A stretch of 64,000 nt of DNA from Sedimentisphaerales bacterium. Lineage in GTDB: Bacteria; Planctomycetota; Phycisphaerae; Sedimentisphaerales; SM23-30. The first letter of the stretch is position 1. Each line of letters begins with the position of its first letter. The notes under the pieces are model-generated. The model was not told the DNA's origin and ran no database searches. It saw only the letters and a program-made list of their open reading frames with translations. Shown one piece after another: positions 10,372 to 20,216 of the stretch. Made by a program: the position numbers and the translations under genes. Location of the stretch: assembly GCA_963666285.1 (NCBI GenBank), contig OY762711.1; one strand, 5' to 3'.

Positions 10372-13300
10372 ATGAAGCGGACTATCGATGAATTTACCAA
10401 TCTGTATTCTTTGAGTAAGACTTTGCGCTTTGAGCTTAAGCCAGTAGGTGAAACAGCGGAAAAGCTGGAAGAATTCAAAAATGAAGGATTAAAGACAATT
10501 GTCGAACAAGACAAAAATCGGGCAAAGGACTACAAGGAGATAAAAAAGATAATTGATAGCTATCATCGATATTTCATTGATGAAGTATTATCAGGAGAAA
10601 TATTAACTGCTGATGAGATTGTAGAAGCCTATAACCTGTACAGCAATGCCACTAAACCTGGGGCCGCAAAAGAGAAAAAAGAAGAATATGCAAAAACACA
10701 AGAGAAGTTAAGAAAGAAGATTTCCGAGAGGTTTTCTGCTGAGAGCAAGAAATACCATCTTTATAAAGGAGACTTTTCCAAGCTCATCAATATGCAAGGG
10801 TCCGGTAAAAATAAAACTAAAGGCAAATTATGGCACTGGCTAAAAGATAGACTTGATAGCGGAAAAATAACAAAAGAAGAATTTGATCAAGCTGACGAGT
10901 ATATAGCAGACTTTGATAAATTCACAACATACTTTGCTGGCTTTAATCAGAACAGGGATAATCTATATGTAGATAAGGACCAGTCAACTGCTATTGCCTA
11001 TCGCATAGTCCATGAGAATATGGCAAAGCATTTTGAGAATTGTAAGAGAATAAACAAAATTGAAATGGAAGAAAGATATTCAGAACTATCGGAATTACTT
11101 CGCTCTCGAAAAGAGATATTTAAGCCTGCTGAGTTTGTGAAATATCTCGGACAAAAAGGGATTGATATATATAACGAAGCAATCGGTCATAAGGCGGATG
11201 ATATAAATGCAAAAGGTATTAACCAGATAATTAATGAATACCGTCAGAAAAATAATATTAAACCGCGTGAACTGCCTGTAATGACGACATTATACAAGCA
11301 GATATTGAGTGATCGAGAAAACGGATTTGTGATTGATGAATTTTTGAGTGATAAAGAAGTATTTGAAGCTATTCAAGAAGTTAATAGAAGTTTAGTTGAT
11401 TCCGAGCTTGTTGAAAATATTATGAACTGTCTGGATGAATATATGCAAGCAGGCAGCCAAGTTGGAATGTACATAAAAAATGACCTTGCATTGACAGATA
11501 TTTCTCAAAAGTATTTCTGTGACTGGTCTTTAATTGGCAGGGCAATTAATGTTTATGCTGAAGAATCTTTAGGTCTTAATCTGGATAAGCGAGAAGCATT
11601 GAGTAAAGAAGATTTTTACTCAATAGAGTTTGTTCAAAAAACTGTTGATTATTACTATGATTCAATTAATATGCCAGATCAGAAAAAATATTTAGCGGAA
11701 TATTTCAGAGGATTTTCAGTTGATGGTAAATTGTTGAGTGATAGTTTTTGTGAAGCATATAAAGAAGTAGAAGCAGTATTAAAACAGGAAGAACTGAATA
11801 AAGACAGGCGGGTCCCCAAGGATGAAAAAGACAAAGGTGGAAAAGGATTTCAACAGATAGAGAAAATAAAGAAGTACCTGGACAGCGTGTTGGCAATTCA
11901 ACATTTTCTGAAACCACTATATATGATGAAAAGCGGCAAGATGATAGAGTTGGGAGAGAAAAACAGTGACTTTTATGACAGATTTAATCCGCTATATGAG
12001 AGTCTTTCAGACATTATCGGAGTATACAATAAAGTAAGGAATTATGTAACGAAAAAGCCCTACAAAACTGACAAATTTAAGATCAATTTTGAAAATAGCA
12101 CATTACTTGACGGTTGGGATGTTAATAAAGAAATTGCTAATAATAGCGTTTTATTATTCAAAGATAACAAATATTTCCTTGGAGTAATGAAAAAAGATTC
12201 TAACAATATGTTTAATTACAGACAGGAAGCAGATGATTCAAAAAACAAGTTGGAAGCTAAGAAAGCAATAGAGAAAAAGATAATAGCAACTGAATCTGAA
12301 GAATACTATGAAAAAATGGTTTACAAGCTTTTGCCAGATCCATCAAAAATGCTTCCAAAGGTATTTTTTAGTAAAAAGAACATCAATTATTATAGCCCTA
12401 CACAAGAAGTTTTGGAAATTCGAGAAAAAGGGTTATTTAAGAAGGCTGCAAACGACAAAAAATCAATGTATAAATGGATTGATTTCATGAAAGAATCTTT
12501 AGGGAGTCACCCTGAGTGGAATCAATATTTTGATTTCACTTTCACAAAAACTAAAGAATTTAGAGATAGTAGTGAGTTTTACAAAGAAGTTGCCGAACAG
12601 GGATATAGCCTAACATATGATAGAATCAAGAAATCATATATTGACGAACATGTTGCTAAGGGTAATTTATATCTATTTGAGATATACAATAAGGATATGT
12701 CGCCATACAGCAAGGGCAGGCCCAACCTCCATACAAGTTACTGGAAACTGTTATTTGCCCATGAAAACCTTAATGATCTTGTTATTAAATTAAATGGTCA
12801 AGCAGAAGTATTTTTCCGCCCACGATCGTTGAAAAAGAAAGAAACGGCAGTACACAAAGCAAATGAGGCAATAGAAAACAAGAACCCACTGAATGCCAAA
12901 AAGATTAGCAGATTTAACTATGATATAATAAAAGACAAAAGGTTCACACAAGATAAGTTTTTCTTTCACTGCCCTATCACGCTAAATTTCAAATCGGGTG
13001 GATTTGGCAAATTCAATGACAAAGTAATTGAGTTTTTGAGAAATAATCCAGATGTTTGTATTATTGGAATAGATAGAGGCGAACGTCATCTGCTGTATTA
13101 TACAGTTATAAATCAAAAAGGTGTAATCTTGGAACAAGGGAGTTTTAATACTATAACCAGCAATATGACAAGTGAAGGTAAGAAAGTCCCAATGACGACG
13201 GATTATCATAATCTGCTTGATAAAAAAGAGAAGGAGCGAGATGCTGCACGGAAAAGCTGGTCAGCAGTAGAGAATATAAAAGAACTCAAAAGCGGCTATT

Positions 13301-14244
13301 TGTCTCATGTAGTACACAAGCTGGCAACACTTATGGTTAAGCATAATGCTATAGTATGCCTGGAGGATCTGAATTTCGGGTTTAAACGCGGCAGGTTTAA
13401 ATTTGAAAAACAGGTATATCAGAAGTTTGAAAAAGCTCTTATAGATAAGTTGAATTACCTGGTATTTAAGGATAATAAACCGGAGGAAGCCGGACATTAT
13501 CTGAAAGCTTATCAGTTGACGGCTCCATTTGAGAGTTTTCAAAAGCTGGGAAAACAGAGCGGTTTTTTGTTTTATGTAACAAGTGACTATACATCAAAGA
13601 TTGATCCGGTGACAGGATTTGCCAATCGTATTAATACTAGGTACGAATCGGTCGAAAAGAGTTGTAAGCTTTTTGAGAAATTTGAGAGTATCCGGTATAG
13701 TCCAGAGAAGAATTATTTTGAATTTGTAATTGATTACTCACAACTGGAAGGAAGCGGGCTAGAGAAATGGACTATCTGTACGCACGGCAAGGAACGTTAC
13801 AGATATAACAGGGAAAAACAGAATTATGAATGTTATGACGTAACTTCAAACCTGAAAGATCTGTTTAGGTCAGAGCAAATAGAATATACAGCGGGAAAAG
13901 ATATAAGAGCCGACATTTTAGCTAGGAAAGAGAAGAAATATGCTGATTTCTTCAGGAAGTTACTATTCAACGTTTCATTAACAGTCCAATTGAGACATAC
14001 ATATAAAGTTAATAGCGAAGAGAAAGACTTTATTCTATCACCAGTAGCAAAAAATGGTAAGTTTTTTGACTCTCGTGAATACGAGAGTATAGAGAATTCG
14101 CAATTACCAATAAATGCAGATGCCAACGGAGCATATAATATAGCCAGGAAAGGTCTGCTGACATTATTAAAGCAAATTAATGAAGGAAATAAACCCTCAG
14201 CAATTAGGAATGCAGACTGGTTTGATTTTGTGCAGAAAAGATAA
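10372..14244 (+). CDS. cas12a: Type V-A CRISPR effector Cas12a (Cpf1)
   Basis: N-terminus FTNLYSLSKTLRFELKP; KLLPDPSKMLPKVFF; RuvC-I IGIDRGERHL, RuvC-II LEDLNFGFK, RuvC-III ADANGAYNIARKG; 1290 aa. Confidence 0.98.
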   Translation: MKRTIDEFTNLYSLSKTLRFELKPVGETAEKLEEFKNEGLKTIVEQDKNRAKDYKEIKKIIDSYHRYFIDEVLSGEILTADEIVEAYNLYSNATKPGAAKEKKEEYAKTQEKLRKKISERFSAESKKYHLYKGDFSKLINMQGSGKNKTKGKLWHWLKDRLDSGKITKEEFDQADEYIADFDKFTTYFAGFNQNRDNLYVDKDQSTAIAYRIVHENMAKHFENCKRINKIEMEERYSELSELLRSRKEIFKPAEFVKYLGQKGIDIYNEAIGHKADDINAKGINQIINEYRQKNNIKPRELPVMTTLYKQILSDRENGFVIDEFLSDKEVFEAIQEVNRSLVDSELVENIMNCLDEYMQAGSQVGMYIKNDLALTDISQKYFCDWSLIGRAINVYAEESLGLNLDKREALSKEDFYSIEFVQKTVDYYYDSINMPDQKKYLAEYFRGFSVDGKLLSDSFCEAYKEVEAVLKQEELNKDRRVPKDEKDKGGKGFQQIEKIKKYLDSVLAIQHFLKPLYMMKSGKMIELGEKNSDFYDRFNPLYESLSDIIGVYNKVRNYVTKKPYKTDKFKINFENSTLLDGWDVNKEIANNSVLLFKDNKYFLGVMKKDSNNMFNYRQEADDSKNKLEAKKAIEKKIIATESEEYYEKMVYKLLPDPSKMLPKVFFSKKNINYYSPTQEVLEIREKGLFKKAANDKKSMYKWIDFMKESLGSHPEWNQYFDFTFTKTKEFRDSSEFYKEVAEQGYSLTYDRIKKSYIDEHVAKGNLYLFEIYNKDMSPYSKGRPNLHTSYWKLLFAHENLNDLVIKLNGQAEVFFRPRSLKKKETAVHKANEAIENKNPLNAKKISRFNYDIIKDKRFTQDKFFFHCPITLNFKSGGFGKFNDKVIEFLRNNPDVCIIGIDRGERHLLYYTVINQKGVILEQGSFNTITSNMTSEGKKVPMTTDYHNLLDKKEKERDAARKSWSAVENIKELKSGYLSHVVHKLATLMVKHNAIVCLEDLNFGFKRGRFKFEKQVYQKFEKALIDKLNYLVFKDNKPEEAGHYLKAYQLTAPFESFQKLGKQSGFLFYVTSDYTSKIDPVTGFANRINTRYESVEKSCKLFEKFESIRYSPEKNYFEFVIDYSQLEGSGLEKWTICTHGKERYRYNREKQNYECYDVTSNLKDLFRSEQIEYTAGKDIRADILARKEKKYADFFRKLLFNVSLTVQLRHTYKVNSEEKDFILSPVAKNGKFFDSREYESIENSQLPINADANGAYNIARKGLLTLLKQINEGNKPSAIRNADWFDFVQKR

Positions 14245-14339: not shown

Positions 14340-14903
14340 ATGGAGAGCTATATACCCATATCATATCTGAATGATTTTATATTTTGTCCGAGGTCGATCT
14401 ATTTCCATCAGCTCCATGGCCGGTTAAGCACGAAATTGTACCATGATGTCGCCCAGACAGCCGGTCGTGCAGCTCATGAAGCAATAGACAATAAGAAATA
14501 TTCCACTCGCAAGAATATTTTGCAGGGTATAGAGGTATATTGCTCTCAATACAATATTGCCGGTAAGATCGATATTTTTGACATTAAAACCGGTTTACTG
14601 ACTGAGCGTAAGAAGCAGATCAAAGCAATTTACGACGGCTATGTGTTCCAGTTATATGCCCAGTATTTCGGTTTGACAGAGGCTGGCTATGCGGTGAAAA
14701 CCATTCGTTTTTACAGTCGTGATGATAACAAGGTATGGCCGGTAGAATTACCAGACAATAATCAAGAAATGTTTGCTAAATTTGAAGAAACAGTTCGGCA
14801 AATACACAATTATGACCTCAATAATTATCGTCAGACAAATATAAAAAAATGTGAGAACTGCATATATGAGCCATTATGCGACCAATCTTTAGCGTTCAGA
14901 TAA
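14340..14903 (+). CDS. cas4: Type V CRISPR-associated Cas4
   Basis: ISYLNDFIFCPRSIYFH, GKIDIFD..ERK, QLYAQY, C-terminal CxxCxxxxxC. Confidence 0.95.
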   Translation: MESYIPISYLNDFIFCPRSIYFHQLHGRLSTKLYHDVAQTAGRAAHEAIDNKKYSTRKNILQGIEVYCSQYNIAGKIDIFDIKTGLLTERKKQIKAIYDGYVFQLYAQYFGLTEAGYAVKTIRFYSRDDNKVWPVELPDNNQEMFAKFEETVRQIHNYDLNNYRQTNIKKCENCIYEPLCDQSLAFR

Positions 14904-14918
14904 TAGAAGGGTAATGTT

Positions 14919-15902
14919 ATGTTAAGCGCACCAGATTTCAAACAGAAGCAAATTATCTTTGCCATGTTAAGCCATGGTGAACACTTAAGCTTTAAAAATG
15001 ACAATGTAATAATAAAAGACAGTGAAGGGGCGATCAAGCATCAATCAACATGCTACAGGCTGTTTGCTCTATTGATAGTAGGTCATATAAGCATAACAAG
15101 CGGTTTACTACAGCGAGCCGAGAAATTTGGCTTTACAATAGTACTAATGACCCATACCTTACGAGTTTACGGATTGTGGTCTTGCGGAGCTGAAGGCAAT
15201 GTCTTGCTGCGGAAGAAACAATATGATTATGAAAACTTATCTATAGCAAAACATATAGTCAAGAATAAGATCTTTAATCAATTATCAGCACTAAAACGTA
15301 TTCGAGGTAAAACAGAATCGCAACAAGCAGGGATAACAGACCTGCAATCATATTTGGAGCGTCTGGAAGAAACAAAAGATTTTGATTTACAGGAAATACT
15401 CGGTATAGAAGGAACTGCCGGTCGGTCATATTTCAAGAACATCTTTTCGGATTATAACTGGCAAGGTCGCCGTCCACGAGTAAAGCATGATATGACTAAC
15501 TGCATGATGGACATAGGCTATACGCTACTTTTTAACATAATAGAAGCCTTGCTCAAGGTGTATGGTTTTGACTTATATCGAGGTGTATATCATCAGGAAT
15601 TTTATCAGAGGAAATCGCTGGTATGCGACCTGGTTGAGCCGTTCAGGCCTTTGATTGACTGGCAAATACGGAAGTCATACAATTTGGGCCAGGTAAAGGA
15701 AAAAGATTTTACTATACGCCAGAATCAATATTGCCTATACGGTAAATCTGCAGGCCCATATATTGTAAATCTGCTTGAGCCGCTAATAAAAGAGAAGCAG
15801 AATATATTTCTCTATGTTCAGGGTTATTACCGCAGTTTTATGAAGGGCAAGGAAGCAGAAGAATTTCCATTTTATGAAATGGAGGCAGGTAAATGCTTAT
15901 AG
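14919..15902 (+). CDS. cas1: Type V CRISPR-associated Cas1
   Basis: GIEGTAGRSYF, GVYHQEFYQRKSLVCDLVEPFR; lies between cas4 and cas2. Confidence 0.96.
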   Translation: MLSAPDFKQKQIIFAMLSHGEHLSFKNDNVIIKDSEGAIKHQSTCYRLFALLIVGHISITSGLLQRAEKFGFTIVLMTHTLRVYGLWSCGAEGNVLLRKKQYDYENLSIAKHIVKNKIFNQLSALKRIRGKTESQQAGITDLQSYLERLEETKDFDLQEILGIEGTAGRSYFKNIFSDYNWQGRRPRVKHDMTNCMMDIGYTLLFNIIEALLKVYGFDLYRGVYHQEFYQRKSLVCDLVEPFRPLIDWQIRKSYNLGQVKEKDFTIRQNQYCLYGKSAGPYIVNLLEPLIKEKQNIFLYVQGYYRSFMKGKEAEEFPFYEMEAGKCL

Positions 15903-16168
15903 TGTCATATGATATAAGTGACGACAAATTACGAACACGCTTTGCAAAATACTTGAAAAAGTTTGGATATAGATTACAATATTCGGTGTTCGAGGTGCGA
16001 AACAGTCCTCGCGTTCTAAACTGCATAGCAACTGAAATAGACAGTAATTTCGGTAAACAGTTCGAACAGAAAGACAGTGTAATAATATTTAACCTAAGCC
16101 AACAGTGCAAAAAGTACTGTTACGGTTATGCCCGAAATGACCAGGACGATTTGATAGTAATTGATTGA
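15893..16168 (+). CDS. cas2: CRISPR-associated Cas2
   Basis: MLIVSYDISDDKLR..G.RLQYSVFE. Confidence 0.96.
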   Translation: MLIVSYDISDDKLRTRFAKYLKKFGYRLQYSVFEVRNSPRVLNCIATEIDSNFGKQFEQKDSVIIFNLSQQCKKYCYGYARNDQDDLIVID

Positions 16169-16294
16169 AATGTAAACCCTGGTATTAATGGCCTGCGAAC
16201 CGTTAATATAGTTGAAAATATGCCGATTATAACGATTATATCTGGATTTGCCTGTAAACTTACACAATCTGTAATGTTTGTACGAAGAATAGCC
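16169..16294 (+). promoter_or_regulatory. CRISPR leader
   Basis: AT-rich non-coding segment between cas2 and the first repeat. Confidence 0.7.
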
Positions 16295-16894
16295 GTCTAG
16301 AAGACATATTAAATTTCTACTGTTGTAGATGTTTTAGAACCACAGATGGACACGGAGTCTAGAAGACATATTAAATTTCTACTGTTGTAGATTCGATTCC
16401 TTACCACCCGCAGAGCAAGTCTAGAAGACATATTAAATTTCTACTGTTGTAGATTACGATCAGCATTGGTTAAATCAGCAGGTCTAGAAGACATATTAAA
16501 TTTCTACTGTTGTAGATTTCTTACTTGGTGTTATCTCTCAAATAGGTCTAGAAGACATATTAAATTTCTACTGTTGTAGATCTAAGTCGCATGCTCTGTG
16601 AATTACAGTCTAGAAGACATATTAAATTTCTACTGTTGTAGATCTGATATCATGGACGGATTATAAGCTTGTCTAGAAGACATATTAAATTTCTACTGTT
16701 GTAGATATAATAATTAGTATCTCTTTTGCTTTGGTCTAGAAGACATATTAAATTTCTACTGTTGTAGATTTACAATATCTTTTGCCTCAATATCTGTCTA
16801 GAAGACATATTAAATTTCTACTGTTGTAGATCGAACGTATACCCCCCTGTCTTCAGGGGTCTAGAAGACATATTAAATTTCTACTGTTGTAGAT
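16295..16894 (+). CRISPR. Type V-A array, leader-proximal part: 10 repeats, 9 intact spacers of 26-28 bp
   Basis: Repeat GTCTAGAAGACATATTAAATTTCTACTGTTGTAGAT (36 bp) starting at 16295, 16357, 16419, 16482, 16546, 16608, 16671, 16734, 16796, 16859; canonical Cas12a 3' handle AATTTCTACTGTTGTAGAT. Confidence 0.99.
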
Positions 16895-16980
16895 ATAGTT
16901 TCGTGCCTTTCGTGTTTTTCTATGAAGCCAGAATGCAACATTAATTTTCTAATTTTATTCATTTTTGCTATAATTCCTTT

Positions 16981-17070
16981 ATCTTGCAAAGGATAGGGCT
17001 CTGCTGAGGAGCAACCCGAGCGTTGCAAGTTGTCGAGAAGCCGGGGCGGTTTTACACCGCCTCGTTTTTT
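16981..17070 (+). ncRNA. Small structured RNA resembling the Acido-Lenti-1 motif, inside the IS end
   Basis: TGCTATAAT extended -10 at 16966-16974; stem CTTGCAA/TTGCAAG with inner hairpin; linker GTCGAGAAGCC; terminator hairpin 17042-17064 plus T6. Family resemblance is from memory of the motif. Confidence 0.5.
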
Positions 17071-17074
17071 GCTT

Positions 17075-17310
17075 TTTGACCTTATGCGATAAACCTATTT
17101 AAAACAATTTTCGCGTAGCGAATCATTATTTACCTGATTGTTTCATCTTTCTATCCGGAGTGTCCGAGGCTGTATTTTACGCCATGGTTCCATTATATAT
17201 ATTGCGATACGGCTTAATTTTCGTGTCAGGTTCAAAACCCAAATGCACGACCAAGGTTCCGTATCGATTTCAATCGGGAAAAATCATAGGTAATATTTTA
17301 TCTTTTACTT
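17075..17310 (-). ncRNA. Candidate bridge RNA / seekRNA of the IS1111-type element (boundaries approximate)
   Basis: 8-bp stem CGATACGG (17205-17212)/CCGTATCG (17259-17266) enclosing TTTTCGTG and CACGA, which match opposite strands of the insertion site. Confidence 0.65.
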
Positions 17311-17319
17311 ATATTGGTA

Positions 17320-18366
17320 TCAAACACTTTGCAACTCGGGCATCTGCCAACTTGTCCCATCTCGCATCATCGCCCACAATCGTACGAACAACCGTCGGGC
17401 TGTAGCTACTATCGCTATTTTTGCACGAGTTTTACTTCCCCTCTTTATTCTTTCGTATGTTTCTTTTATCCATGGATTCCAACGCAAACCCAGCCAGCAA
17501 ACCTCAACAAGTAATGCTCGCAATAACCTATTGCCATATTTACTTATCCGCCCATGACGGTCTGTATTACCTGATTGGTACTGACGCGGTGTCATACCAA
17601 TATAGCTGCCAACTTGTTTGCAATTCTTAAATCTATGTGGATCATCAATATAAGCTGCAACTGCCTCTGCCAGACGTGGGCCAACTCCGGGAACAGTCTG
17701 TAATAGTTTTACTTTTTCATCAGTACTATTTAACTCTTCCAGTTTATCTTCAACTACTTGCAAAGCGTCTGTTAATTGTTCCAGTAATATAAGCTCGCTC
17801 CATAGATTGCCTTTCCAGAGCTCATCTGGTTTAACTTTATCCATTGGCATAGCCATACTTCTTAACTGTTCCAGATTCTGCTTAGACCAGCACTTTCTGC
17901 CTGACGGCAACGAATACGCCTGGGCATTTAATAAAGAACGAATAGTATTTTTTACCTGAGTTATCCGTTCTGTAAGGCTCTGGCGATAATTAATTAAAGA
18001 TCGTTTCTCGCGAATTTCCTTTTTAGGAACATAGACAGTTGATAAATCTCCTAAAGCAGCACGCTTGGCCAGCCAAAATGCATCCTTTTTATCTGTTTTC
18101 TTCTTCAATTTTCTGCCAGACCATTCGCCGGTATTAGTATTTGCCACTTCATATTTTAATTCCAGGGTGTCAAAAAGGTCACAAATCCAGCCTATGATAT
18201 CACAAGCCTCAAATACAATAAGATCAGCAGGGTGAGATACTGCCAGGTCATGAAGCTCTTGAGGGTTAGTCTTAAACGACTTATATGTAGCCTTACAGCT
18301 TTTTACCTCATAAAAACAAACTACACTCTTGAATTTTCCTAAATCAATTGACATAATAGTCTTCAT
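17320..18366 (-). CDS. IS110-family DEDD recombinase/transposase
   Basis: IDLGK (D), FEAC (E), KTDKKDA (D,D), TVPGVGP, QSG catalytic serine, ISKYGNRLLR; 348 aa and intact. Confidence 0.96.
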   Translation of the reverse strand: MKTIMSIDLGKFKSVVCFYEVKSCKATYKSFKTNPQELHDLAVSHPADLIVFEACDIIGWICDLFDTLELKYEVANTNTGEWSGRKLKKKTDKKDAFWLAKRAALGDLSTVYVPKKEIREKRSLINYRQSLTERITQVKNTIRSLLNAQAYSLPSGRKCWSKQNLEQLRSMAMPMDKVKPDELWKGNLWSELILLEQLTDALQVVEDKLEELNSTDEKVKLLQTVPGVGPRLAEAVAAYIDDPHRFKNCKQVGSYIGMTPRQYQSGNTDRHGRISKYGNRLLRALLVEVCWLGLRWNPWIKETYERIKRGSKTRAKIAIVATARRLFVRLWAMMRDGTSWQMPELQSV

Positions 18367-18494
18367 AGCCAGAATACTCCGTATAAAATAGGTTAAATAT
18401 TTGAGCGTCCCTGTGACAGCTCGTGCTAAAATTATTGTGTATTATAACACAAGCCATGCTACAGGAATATTCTGGCTTTCATTGTATTTTCGTG

Positions 18495-18718
18495 GTCTAG
18501 AAGACATATTAAATTTCTACTGTTGTAGATTCACATCATCGCTTATTGATGAAGATGGTCTAGAAGACATATTAAATTTCTACTGTTGTAGATTTGCCTT
18601 CTTTCTTTTAAGTTTTATAGTCTAGAAGACATATTAAATTTCTACTGTTGTAGATTAAAAAAGGTGACGTGATCGATTATGGGTCTAGAAGACATATTAA
18701 ATTTCTACTGTTGTAGAT
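18495..18718 (+). CRISPR. Type V-A array, distal part: 4 repeats, 3 spacers
   Basis: Same 36-bp repeat at 18495, 18558, 18620, 18683. Confidence 0.99.
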
Positions 18719-18816
18719 TTGGCTCCGCCCTTAGAACATACGAGCAGTTGAACAGTAAAAAGAGGAGAGAGGCGGGAAGAAATTATAAATTATAAATGTT
18801 GAATTATGAAAAAAAA

Positions 18817-18867
18817 TCTCATCTTTTATCGGATTCCATATAAGGGAGAACCAGATAAAAGATGAGA
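18817..18867. terminator. Perfect 14-bp inverted repeat between the convergent CRISPR array and lysA; possible bidirectional terminator
   Basis: TCTCATCTTTTATC (18817-18830) and GATAAAAGATGAGA (18854-18867), flanked by A runs. Confidence 0.5.
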
Positions 18868-18938
18868 AAAGTTATATGTAAAGATCGCATTAAATCCACC
18901 ATTAAACTAGTGGACCGGCAGCCCTGAGACAAGGCTAT

Positions 18939-20216
18939 TTATTTTTCGTGGGCGGTGAGGTCCTGCCAGGTTTCTCGTTTGCGGATGACCTTGACGTCTG
19001 AGCCGTCGACGAGAATTTCTGCGGCACGCGGCCTGGAGTTGTACTGGCTGGCCATGACGAAACCGTAGGCACCGGCGGTGAAGACGGCGAGCAGGTCGCC
19101 GCGTTTGACCGGCGGCATGAGCCTGTCCTGGGCGAGGAAGTCGCTGGACTCGCAGACCGGACCAACGACGTCGGTTTTGACAGTGCCGGGCAGAGCCATG
19201 ACATCGTCACGCTGTTTGGGCAGGAAGTCCGTGGTGACGGAAACGGGCCAGATGAAATGGAACGCTTCGTATAATGCCGGGCGGATGAGGTCGTTCATCG
19301 CCCCGTCGATAATGGCGAAGTTCTTTTCGCCGCTGGTCTTGGTATAGTTGACCTGAGTGACGAGAATACCTGCGTTGCCCATGATGGATCTGCCGGGCTC
19401 GAGTATGAGCTTGAGGCCGGTATCCTTTAGCAGCGGTACGATAGCCGCGGCGTAGTCTGCCGGGGTTGGAGACTGGCCGGTGATATAGTCGCTGGCATAG
19501 CCGCCGCCGATATCGAGTGTGTCGATCTCGAAGCCCTTGGCACGGAGAGCTTCGATCATGGTAAGTGTCTTTTTGATGGCCTGCACGTATGGGTCCGGTG
19601 AATAAATCGGTGAGCCGATGTGCAGGTGGATGCCGGCGATATGAATATTTTCGTTGCGGCCGTAGGTTTCGAAAACGTTAATGGCACGTTCGATATCGAC
19701 GCCGAATTTTGATTCCTTCTTGCCGGTGGTGGTGTATCTGTGGGTTTTGGGGTCGACGTCGGGGTTGACCCGAAGAGCACATTTGACCTTTTTGCCCATC
19801 TGTGATGCGATATCGATGATATTTTCCAGCTCGGCCTCCGATTCGATATTGAAATAGCCGATGCCCTGCTCGATGGCGTACCTGATCTCGGGGTCAGTCT
19901 TGCCGACGCCGGCGTAAACTACCTTTGAAGGGTCGGCACCGGCCTCAACGACGCGGAACAGCTCGCCGCCGCTGACGACGTCGAATGTTTCGCCAAGCCG
20001 GGCTACCATTTTGAGGATATTTATATTACTGCAAACCTTTACAGAATAACAGATTGTGGTATCGATACCCTTGAAGGCCTGCTGAAAATTCTTAATGTGG
20101 GATTTGATAGTGTTGGCACTGTAAATGTATAGCGGTGTGCCATGTTCGGCTGCGATCTGCTCAACCGGCACATCTTCGCAAAACAGCTTGTTGTCTTTGT
20201 ACTGGAAAAGGTCCAT
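18939..20216 (-). CDS. lysA: Diaminopimelate decarboxylase
   Basis: YSVK PLP lysine, DVVSGGEL, HLHIGS, EPGR, VGPVCESSD, GAYGFVMASQYNSRPR. Confidence 0.95.
   Translation of the reverse strand: MDLFQYKDNKLFCEDVPVEQIAAEHGTPLYIYSANTIKSHIKNFQQAFKGIDTTICYSVKVCSNINILKMVARLGETFDVVSGGELFRVVEAGADPSKVVYAGVGKTDPEIRYAIEQGIGYFNIESEAELENIIDIASQMGKKVKCALRVNPDVDPKTHRYTTTGKKESKFGVDIERAINVFETYGRNENIHIAGIHLHIGSPIYSPDPYVQAIKKTLTMIEALRAKGFEIDTLDIGGGYASDYITGQSPTPADYAAAIVPLLKDTGLKLILEPGRSIMGNAGILVTQVNYTKTSGEKNFAIIDGAMNDLIRPALYEAFHFIWPVSVTTDFLPKQRDDVMALPGTVKTDVVGPVCESSDFLAQDRLMPPVKRGDLLAVFTAGAYGFVMASQYNSRPRAAEILVDGSDVKVIRKRETWQDLTAHEK

What the first reader, a model, noticed from the sequence alone, without database searches (positions are those of the whole stretch)
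16895..18494. IS1111-type element inserted inside a Cas12a spacer, not a repeat
Seen: removing the IS joins ATAGTTTCGTGCCTTTCGTG + T4-5 + CGTG into a 28-29-nt spacer between two perfect repeats. Established: IS110/IS1111 elements insert sequence-specifically without target duplication, and some target REP repeats. Inference: the array captured a copy of the element's preferred REP-like target and so created a landing pad. One RNA-guided system then disabled a guide of another, which could be selected for if that spacer was self-targeting.
Basis: partly seen in the sequence, partly recalled or inferred. Interest (0 to 1): 0.8.

Follow-up and report, generated by a model that had tools for sequence, protein, structure and literature searches.

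The report
RNA-guided jumping gene inside CRISPR spacer
A site-specific jumping gene that finds its landing site with its own small guide RNA has landed inside one stored "memory" of a CRISPR immune array, because that memory is a copy of the short repeat motif the element normally hunts.

Summary
Two perfect 36-nt Cas12a repeats (16859-16894 and 18495-18530) enclose 1600 nt. About 1571 nt of this (16919-18489) is an IS110/IS1111-type element, flanked by 24 nt and 5 nt of spacer.

The genome holds 8 more copies at 99% identity. All 9 sit in one orientation in the same short target, TCGTG-NN-T3/4-CGTGG, and unoccupied sites exist.

The element has every structural IS1111 mark I could test. It also has a candidate seekRNA whose two guide segments match the target 9/10 and 10/10; 0 of 1000 shuffles reproduced this arrangement.

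The rejoined spacer is 29 nt. Its bases 5-24 occur exactly in 261 distinct public loci across many phyla, and 223 of those continue with T+CGTG, as the right flank does. So the spacer copies a foreign variant of a widespread TTTCGTG-repeat motif.

The "disabled a self-targeting guide" idea does not hold:
- No genomic match within 5 mismatches, and no PAM.
- The first 24 nt of the guide remain intact.
- The likelier effect is transcription termination ahead of spacers 11-13.

No empty allele of the array itself was found. The element is a new member of a known IS family, in an unusual and informative location.

The parts
10372..14244 (+). cas12a (1290 aa)
   Evidence: Pfam RuvC_1, REC1, cas_Cpf1_2nd, NUC and Cpf1_PI-like. 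TIGR04330 cas_Cpf1 at 1149 bits.
14340..16168 (+). cas4 (14340-14903), cas1 (14919-15902), cas2 (15893-16168)
   Evidence: Pfam Cas_Cas4, Cas_Cas1 and CRISPR_Cas2.
16295..18718 (+). CRISPR array: 14 identical 36-nt repeats and 13 spacers. It is the only array with this repeat in the genome.
16895..16918 (+). Spacer 10, left (PAM-proximal) 24 nt
   Evidence: Bases 16899-16918 equal an exact 20-mer found in 261 distinct public loci.
16919..18489 (-). IS1111-family insertion sequence, 1571 bp. The ends are uncertain by 1-2 nt because they lie inside T runs.
   Evidence: Nine copies at 99% identity. Ends defined by flank comparison and by empty sites.
18490..18494 (+). Spacer 10, right 5 nt (TCGTG)
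   Evidence: 223 of 261 public copies of the 20-mer continue with T+CGTG.
17320..18366 (-). Transposase/recombinase, 348 aa, DEDD type
   Evidence: PF01548 and PF02371. NF033542. The GMTPRQYQSG motif is visible in the translation.
16922..16934 (.). Subterminal inverted repeat at the element's right end (transposase sense): ATGAAGCCAGAAT on the + strand
   Evidence: Read. It pairs with 18469-18482 with one extra base.
18469..18482 (.). Subterminal inverted repeat at the element's left end (transposase sense): ATTCTGGCTTTCAT on the + strand
17206..17265 (-). Candidate seekRNA target-binding module. Basal stem 17259-17265 / 17206-17212. 5' guide 17241-17250 (UCGUGCAUUU). Distal hairpin 17228-17240. 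3' guide 17216-17225 (CACGAAAAUU).
   Evidence: Matches to the target. Folds (z = -3.39, 0 of 200 shuffles fold as well). Shuffle test 0 of 1000. Invariant in all 9 copies.
17042..17074 (+). Intrinsic-terminator-like hairpin (9 pairs, 7 G-C) plus a T run. It lies on the strand of the CRISPR transcript, antisense to the transposase.

Best explanation
An IS1111-family insertion sequence (1571 bp, 9 copies) recognises a ~15-bp target with a seekRNA. The seekRNA is encoded in the 400-nt non-coding region downstream of its DEDD recombinase gene. In transposase sense the target is CACG-AAAATT-CACGA; on the window's + strand it is TCGTG-AA-TTTT-CGTG.

Its usual targets here are about 18 copies of an intergenic repeat built from three TTTCGTG heptamers at a 10-bp period. 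Seven of these are occupied.

At some time the Cas12a adaptation machinery stored a 29-nt spacer from foreign DNA. That DNA carried the widespread 9-bp-period form of the same heptamer motif. The spacer reproduced enough of the target for the element to recombine into its T run: 8/10 matches to each guide, plus the T-run core. The insertion is conservative, has the usual orientation and makes no duplication.

Shown:
- The insertion and the common target.
- The empty sites.
- The identity of the spacer with the public motif.
- The guide-to-target matches.

Inferred:
- That the RNA is made and guides recombination.
- That the spacer was foreign-derived.
- The consequences. crRNA 10 keeps its first 24 nt, so it is probably still usable. 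A terminator inside the element probably cuts spacers 11-13 off from the leader promoter.

The event looks like a neutral accident of target mimicry, not a selected inactivation.
For: - Family: Pfam and NCBIfam hits.
- Copies and flanks: 9 copies at 99% identity. 9 of 9 have the same orientation, and 8 of 8 other copies sit in TTTYGTG-NN-TTT | IS | TTTT-CGTGGTT flanks. Of the 18 canonical repeat copies among the 24 genome hits to the 10-nt anchor, 11 are unoccupied and 7 occupied.
- Motif specificity: TCGTG-N2-T3-4-CGTG occurs 11 times in the genome, all in that repeat family or in spacer 10.
- seekRNA: a 10-nt same-sense match CACGAAAATT and a 9/10 antisense match lie 25 nt apart, on the two sides of a hairpin inside a 7-8-bp stem. 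In 1000 dinucleotide shuffles, the same-sense match of 10 or more occurred 15 times, the antisense match of 9/10 or better 109 times, and both in that order within 60 nt 0 times. The order (top-strand complement first, the two matches overlapping in the target) is the one described for IS1111 seekRNAs (PMC11187229, sections read). The guides are identical in all 9 copies.
223 of these continue T+CGTG, and 218 then have G. T4 occurs in 4 and T6 in 2. The 16-nt core TTTCGTGCCTTTCGTG occurs nowhere else in this genome.
- Terminator on the array's strand.
- Cas12a works with 19-nt spacers, and sequence downstream of the spacer had only minor effects (PMC7102956, passages seen).
Against: - No empty allele of this array was seen. 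The one public run that holds the locus (X1, Logan contigs) lacks all of these spacers.
- The exact protospacer was not found: 0 matches in metagenome and genome contigs for the first 20 nt. There was 1 viral match; it diverges after 20 nt and has GAAC where a PAM should be.
- The spacer matches each guide only 8/10. The spacing between the two CGTG blocks (5 or 6 nt) cannot be settled because of the T runs.
- The seekRNA is a prediction. There are no expression data, there was no Rfam hit in 16000-19000, and I could not identify a donor-binding module.
- The array copy has 6 private differences from all other copies. It is therefore not a fresh insertion, and the order of events is unknown.
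- None of the 250 public motif loci carries a relative of this transposase.
Confidence: 0.85

Rival explanations
1. Selected inactivation. Spacer 10 targeted the host's own repeat copies, and the insertion was favoured because it destroyed the autoimmune guide.
For: - The spacer belongs to the same heptamer-repeat family as about 18 chromosomal elements.
- Self-targeting does occur in this array: spacer 2 matches the resident Mu-like prophage with 1 mismatch.
Against: - The rejoined spacer (T4, T5 or T6) has no genomic match with 5 or fewer mismatches. The nearest (C1:5184396) has 6, three of them in the first four PAM-proximal bases, and ATTA where TTTV should be.
- The first 24 nt of the guide are untouched. 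19-nt Cas12a guides work, and downstream sequence matters little (passages).
- Spacer 2, the real near-self match, lies upstream and is unaffected.
Confidence: 0.05
2. Chance resemblance. The spacer is unrelated to the element's target family and merely happened to contain a usable site.
For: - The guides need only about 15 bp, and the spacer matches them imperfectly (8/10 and 8/10).
- The exact protospacer is not in any collection searched.
Against: - The motif occurs nowhere in 6.35 Mb outside the repeat family.
- 25 of the 29 spacer bases equal a sequence found contiguously in 223 public loci. That is far more than the guides require, and includes a third TTTCGTG unit upstream of the recognised part.
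Confidence: 0.03
3. Not an insertion into a pre-existing spacer. The element, with bits of its old flanks, was placed between repeats by another route, such as integration of a long fragment by Cas1-Cas2 or recombination.
For: Earlier notes of this scan describe arrays with kilobase 'spacers' in other organisms (unchecked here).
Against: - The two flanks add up to one ordinary-sized spacer (29 nt against 26-28 nt for the other 12).
- Together the flanks recreate a sequence that is contiguous elsewhere.
- Both junctions have exactly the geometry of the 8 chromosomal insertions.
Confidence: 0.03

Closest known systems
IS1111-family elements with seekRNA (ISEc11, ISPa11, ISKpn4/ISPst6; Siddiquee et al. 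2024, PMC11187229)
   Same: - DEDD recombinase of 330-350 aa.
- Subterminal inverted repeats.
- Long non-coding region downstream of the gene.
- A short RNA carrying first a top-strand complement and then a bottom-strand complement, overlapping in the target.
- Orientation-specific insertion without duplication.
- Some members (ISPa11) target chromosomal repeat elements.
   Different: - The protein is only distantly related to the named elements seen. The best plasmid hit is 42% identical (Acaryochloris), and an ISEc11-family hit covers only aa 195-333 at 32%.
- The target is a TTTCGTG heptamer repeat.
- One copy sits in a CRISPR spacer.
- The RNA has not been shown experimentally.
IS621 / IS110 bridge RNA recombinases
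   Same: RNA-guided DEDD recombinase. Internal-loop architecture with guides on both sides of a hairpin. A core shared by donor and target.
   Different: In IS110-type elements the RNA is upstream of the gene and the guide order is reversed (PMC11187229, abstract and introduction read). I could not find a donor-binding loop here.
IS4321/IS5075 in the terminal repeats of Tn21-type transposons, and ISKpn4/ISPst6 in integron attC sites
   Same: IS1111-family elements whose target is a short conserved sequence that travels on other mobile DNA. The attC case is named in PMC11187229; the IS4321 target is mentioned there, and the rest is recalled.
   Different: Here the target copy was carried into the chromosome as a CRISPR spacer, not as part of a transposon or cassette.
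Paired tandem-repeat 'global regulator binding sites' of Geobacter metallireducens (Aklujkar et al. 2009, PMC2700814), and intergenic heptamer direct repeats (MacGregor 2015, PMC4679880)
   Same: Intergenic arrays of 7-9-nt tandem repeats, often as two arrays on opposite strands at variable distance. In Geobacter, ISGme8/ISGme9 lie at a fixed distance from them (passages read; for MacGregor only the search listing and abstract start).
   Different: Different repeat words. The TTTCGTG form found here is shared letter for letter across many phyla. Its function or mobility is unknown.

Membership tests
IS1111 family (within IS110 sensu ISFinder) | DEDD/RuvC-like N-terminal domain plus PF02371 C-terminal domain | tested here: met
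   PF01548 E 1.8e-13 and PF02371 E 1.5e-26. NF033542 at 214 bits, cut-off 140.
IS1111 family (within IS110 sensu ISFinder) | Transposase of 330-350 aa with a G(L)-P----S/T-G motif | tested here: met
   348 aa. GMTPRQYQSG in the translation, with M in place of L. Criterion taken from PMC11187229, section read.
IS1111 family (within IS110 sensu ISFinder) | Subterminal inverted repeats of about 11-13 bp | tested here: met
   16922-16934 against 18469-18482: 13 of 14 positions pair, with one extra base in the left-end arm.
IS1111 family (within IS110 sensu ISFinder) | Asymmetric terminal extensions (7 bp left, 3 bp right; sometimes 6 and 3) | tested here: inconclusive
   Both 7/3 and 6/3 fit, because the ends lie in T runs. 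Empty sites with 5-nt and 6-nt linkers both exist, and none with 7. This favours 7/3.
IS1111 family (within IS110 sensu ISFinder) | Longer non-coding region downstream of the transposase gene | tested here: met
   About 400 nt downstream (16919-17319) against about 123 nt upstream (18367-18489).
IS1111 family (within IS110 sensu ISFinder) | One specific target, one orientation, no target duplication | tested here: met
   9 of 9 copies. Empty sites rejoin without gain or loss apart from the shared T run.
IS1111 family (within IS110 sensu ISFinder) | seekRNA from the non-coding region, with the top-strand complement 5' of the bottom-strand complement | tested here: met
   Met in sequence only. 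RNA production and co-purification with the protein are not testable here.
IS1111 family (within IS110 sensu ISFinder) | Placement inside the IS1111 clade of a transposase tree | not tested
   Only pairwise hits were seen. No tree with named IS1111 and IS110 references was built.
Type V-A CRISPR-Cas | Cas12a with cas4-cas1-cas2 and a downstream array of 36-nt repeats, no tracrRNA needed | tested here: met
   That the repeat's 3' 19 nt resemble the known Cas12a crRNA handle is recalled, not tested.
REP elements in the strict sense (palindromic units) | Each unit is an imperfect palindrome able to form a hairpin | tested here: not met
   The genome's own target copies show no inverted partner in the 55 nt printed upstream. 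In the public 9-bp-period family, 134 of 238 copies do have an inverted heptamer array within 200 nt. 'REP-like' fits as a description, not as membership.

The most novel reading that the evidence does not exclude
CRISPR arrays may be natural traps for RNA-guided, site-specific mobile elements. Any spacer taken from DNA that carries the element's target recreates that target in the chromosome.

Here the trapped target is a ~28-nt TTTCGTG heptad motif that is identical across many phyla. It is 16/17 identical to the transposase-binding end of phage Mu. It may be the end or landing signal of a cross-phylum mobile element.

On this reading, the insertion sequence hunts that motif to board incoming mobile DNA, and the spacer records such an invader. 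The event would also show in vivo that about 29 bp, stripped of all native context, is a sufficient target for an IS1111-type element.
Probability: 0.2. Interest if true: 0.75.

Novelty: new member of a known kind. Interest (0 to 1): 0.5.

Why it matters
- It is a natural experiment on target sufficiency for seekRNA/bridge-type recombinases. A 29-nt copy of the target, flanked only by CRISPR repeats and mismatched at 2 of 10 positions in each guide, was still used.
- It shows one way in which CRISPR memory can import landing sites for selfish elements. An insertion in a spacer can split an array's transcription unit without destroying the guide it hits.
- It ties a CRISPR spacer and an insertion sequence to an unexplained heptamer-repeat motif conserved letter for letter across phyla. 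That gives two independent handles for finding out what the motif is.

Tried and rejected
- **Rfam**, E-value mode, on 16000-19000: no hit.
- **Sequencing runs**: one run only (X1, Logan contigs). When laid, it has the cas2 side and the trailer with no differences, but none of spacers 2-9 or 11-12. One contig joins 16294 to 18683 across a single repeat. This gave no empty allele and no expression data.
- **Exact first 20 nt of the spacer**: 0 matches in metagenome and genome contigs. One viral contig, L011, diverges after 20 nt, is G+C-rich, and has GAAC in place of a PAM. I judged it chance-level; by my own arithmetic, about 0.1-0.2 such hits are expected.
- **Literature by sequence words**: none. 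Two searches on IS plus CRISPR array gave nothing on an IS in a spacer by target mimicry (listings only). Two searches failed on term format.
- **Earlier findings by sequence**: nothing.
- **Promoter-like sites** in 16100-18900: 12 found against 10.5 +/- 3.1 in shuffles, so there is no evidence for read-out promoters.
- **Donor-binding module**: I found only same-sense matches to both element ends (AAAATACA near 17178, ATAGAAA near 17150; read). This is not the expected sense/antisense pair, so it is unresolved.
- **Relatives, as a test of natural reprogramming**:
  - 5 of 301 genomes of the phylum have a match at E <= 1e-40, G000 included. The best outside it is 46% identical and single-copy, with no subterminal repeats found.
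  - Two Acaryochloris plasmid copies (42% identical to ours, 81% to each other) share the right-end GGCTTCATAG. They have an 8-nt same-sense match across their flank junction, but I found no 5' guide. Inconclusive.
- **Is the public motif a transposon end?**
  - Of 145 flanking ORFs, 0 are Mu/Tn7-type transposases. One is IS1595, lying beside the motif with its own 8-bp duplication; one is an IS5-type; three are PF13366.
  - No target duplications were seen by eye at 9 inverted pairs.
  - The genome's own Mu-like prophage region has only 4 scattered heptamers.

Full report
**What is there.**
The window carries a type V-A locus: cas12a (10372-14244), cas4, cas1 and cas2, identified by Pfam. Cas12a scores 1149 bits on TIGR04330. 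A leader follows, then an array of 14 identical 36-nt repeats (16295-18718). Twelve spacers are 26-28 nt. The tenth interval (16895-18494) is 1600 nt. It is the only array with this repeat in the 6.35-Mb genome.

**The insert.**
The insert encodes, on the minus strand, a 348-aa protein (17320-18366). It has PF01548 (DEDD_Tnp_IS110) and PF02371. It also hits NF033542 'IS110 family RNA-guided transposase' at 214 bits against a cut-off of 140.

**Copies, ends and target.**
The genome holds 9 full copies at 99% identity, plus one 35-nt fragment. All 9 copies, put in the window's orientation, have related flanks:
- Seven read ...TTTCGTGTTCTTTCGTGAA-T3/4 | CTATGAAGCC...CATTGTA | T4-CGTGGTTG.
- One (C1:6009881) reads ...TTTTTGTGTA-TTT | IS | TTTT-CGTGGTTC.
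- The array copy reads ...TTTCGTGCCTTTCGTG-T5 | IS | T4-CGTG, followed by the repeat.

A search with the 10-nt anchor CTTTCGTGAA gave 24 genome hits. Eighteen of these are repeat copies, 11 empty and 7 occupied. The empty ones read CTTTCGTGAATTT(T)CGTGG. The odd copy also has an empty paralogue, at C1:5752362. Insertion is therefore site-specific, orientation-specific and conservative, with a T run shared by element and target.

**Family membership.**
The element shows the structural marks that Siddiquee et al. list for the IS1111 family (PMC11187229; sections read):
- Subterminal inverted repeats (16922-16934 and 18469-18482).
- A long non-coding region downstream of the gene.
- A 348-aa protein with GMTPRQYQSG.

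With their 7-bp/3-bp extension rule, the element is 16919-18489 and the spacer is 24 + 5 = 29 nt. A 6/3 reading would give 30 nt. Empty sites with 5-nt and 6-nt linkers both exist, and none has 7. This favours 7/3.

**How it finds the target.**
The candidate guide RNA lies in the downstream non-coding region, read in transposase sense. There, a 7-8-bp stem (17259-17265 with 17206-17212) encloses three parts in order:
1. UCGUGCAUUU (17241-17250).
2. A small hairpin.
3. CACGAAAAUU (17216-17225).

The 73-nt piece folds with z = -3.39, and 0 of 200 shuffles fold as well.

The second segment equals the target's top strand, CACGAAAATT, at 10/10. The first is complementary to AAATTCACGA at 9/10. The two footprints overlap across the crossover. 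This is the order and overlap reported for IS1111 seekRNAs.

In 1000 dinucleotide shuffles of the non-coding region:
- The 10-nt match recurred 15 times.
- A 9/10 antisense match recurred 109 times.
- Both, in that order and within 60 nt, recurred 0 times.

No copy differs in this region. Against the spacer each segment matches 8/10. This part is prediction only. Rfam gave nothing, no RNA data were available, and I could not find a donor-binding module.

**Where the spacer came from.**
- The rejoined spacer (tried with T4, T5 and T6) has no match in the genome within 5 mismatches.
- Its core, TTTCGTGCCTTTCGTG, occurs only in the array.
- Its first 20 nt gave 0 hits in metagenome and genome contigs. 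It gave one viral hit, which diverges after 20 nt and lacks a PAM.

After removing overlaps there are 261 distinct matches. Of these, 223 continue T+CGTG, exactly as the right flank does, and 218 then have G.

The hosts span many groups (record titles):
- Gallionellaceae, Methylococcales and Burkholderiales
- Planctomycetes, Verrucomicrobia and Lentisphaeria
- Syntrophobacter, Anaerolineales and Acidobacteria
- Gemmatimonadales, Bacteroidetes and a cyanobacterium

The neighbouring genes are ordinary housekeeping genes of all kinds (145 ORFs). In 134 of 238 copies an inverted heptamer array lies within 200 nt upstream.

The spacer is therefore a copy of a widespread intergenic heptamer-repeat motif, in its 9-bp-period form. 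The genome's own copies are a 10-bp-period variant, and the guides fit that variant best. It also supports the idea that the array captured a landing pad, from foreign DNA. The donor and its PAM remain unknown: TTTV stands at the right distance in only 8 of 261 public copies.

**Consequences for the array.**
- The insertion lies after spacer position 24. Creutzburg et al. used 19-nt Cas12a spacers and found only minor effects of sequence downstream of the spacer (PMC7102956; passages). The guide is therefore probably not disabled.
- On the array's strand the element carries a strong terminator-like hairpin with a T run (17042-17074). Spacers 11-13 are probably cut off from the leader promoter.
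- Promoter-like matches are no more frequent than in shuffles.
- Selection against self-targeting is unsupported.
- The one near-self spacer is spacer 2. It matches C1:5307714 with one mismatch, inside the gene of a Mu-type transposase, and it lies upstream of the insertion.

**Age and relatives.**
- The array copy differs from the main group of copies at 8-10 positions, 6 of them private. The insertion is therefore not fresh.
- A related strain in run X1 carries the element at about 9.5 times chromosomal depth, in the main-group sequence. It shows the canonical flanks and the variant flank of the copy at C1:6009881. It lacks these spacers altogether: one contig joins leader and trailer across one repeat.
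- In 301 genomes of the phylum (G000 included), 5 have a relative at E <= 1e-40. The best outside G000 is 46% identical.
- The best plasmid hit is 42% identical, in Acaryochloris.
- None of the 250 public motif loci holds a relative.

**Comparison and verdict.**
The element is a new, distant member of the IS1111 family. It works, as far as sequence can show, like ISEc11 or ISPa11. The heptamer-repeat target belongs to a poorly understood class:
- Aklujkar et al. described paired tandem-repeat sites with insertion sequences at a fixed distance (PMC2700814; passages).
- MacGregor described intergenic heptamer repeats (PMC4679880; listing only).
- Earlier notes of this scan met CACGAAA arrays in other genomes, and heptad arrays in this one.

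I found no report of an IS1111/IS110 element landing in a spacer through target mimicry (searches; listings only). The case is a tidy natural demonstration rather than a new kind of system.

Noticed in passing
window 16393-16418 (spacer 2); G000 C1:5307714: Spacer 2 matches the chromosome with one mismatch (position 18). The site lies inside the 675-aa ORF that carries the Mu transposase C-terminal domain (PF09299, C1:5308038-5308208), that is, the resident Mu-like prophage. The 4 nt upstream are CTTC, not TTTV.
   Followed up: partly
L012-L262 (public loci); e.g. L013 115-134 and onward: A ~28-nt motif (three TTTCGTG units with CC and TT linkers, then G) is identical in 218-223 of 261 distinct public loci from many phyla. 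It lies in intergenic DNA beside housekeeping genes. In 134 of 238 copies an inverted partner array lies 12-174 nt away. Some loci hold long tandem runs of the 9-10-nt unit (L031, L102, L121). Its nature is unknown.
   Followed up: partly
L280 292-308 (phage Mu, NC_000929 36691-36707): The right end of phage Mu, where its transposase binds (role recalled), reads CTTTCGCGTTTTTCGTG. This is 16 of 17 identical to the motif's CTTTCGTGTTTTTCGTG. No Mu/Tn7-type transposase was found among 145 ORFs flanking the motif, and this genome's own Mu-like prophage lacks such clusters.
   Followed up: partly
window 17042-17074 (+): The element carries a strong intrinsic-terminator-like hairpin on the strand antisense to its own gene. 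It could block read-through from outside into the element. It is present in all 9 copies.
   Followed up: no
window 16294/18683 in run X1: A close relative has identical cas2-side and trailer sequence, with 0 differences in about 1.4 kb. It has leader and trailer joined across a single repeat and none of the 13 spacers, while carrying the same insertion sequence at about 9.5 times chromosomal depth.
   Followed up: partly
G000 C1:714000-718200 and 909000-918300: Insertion-sequence copies and empty target repeats cluster. Two copies lie 470 bp apart (714496-716068 and 716540-718112), with an empty site at 714197. Two more lie at 909034-910609 and 915067-916639, with empty sites at 912859 and 918242.
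   Followed up: no
window 16901-16914: The spacer holds a second, unoccupied near-target (TCGTG-CC-TTT-CGTG) one repeat unit upstream of the occupied one. By my count it matches the guides about as well (7/10 and 9/10).
   Followed up: no
L184 and L191 (Gallionellales/Gallionella MAGs): In other genomes a ~44-nt hairpin module (GCGAGCTTTCGCC...GGCGAAATGCC...) sits at the same T run of the motif where this insertion sequence inserts. In L033 an IS1595-family element with an 8-bp duplication lies 13 nt beyond the motif.
   Followed up: no
L284 and L285 (Acaryochloris marina pREB2): The nearest plasmid relatives (42% identical protein) share the right-end sequence GGCTTCATAG with this element. 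Both sit at the same place in a DDE-transposase remnant, which suggests a family habit of targeting other mobile DNA.
   Followed up: partly
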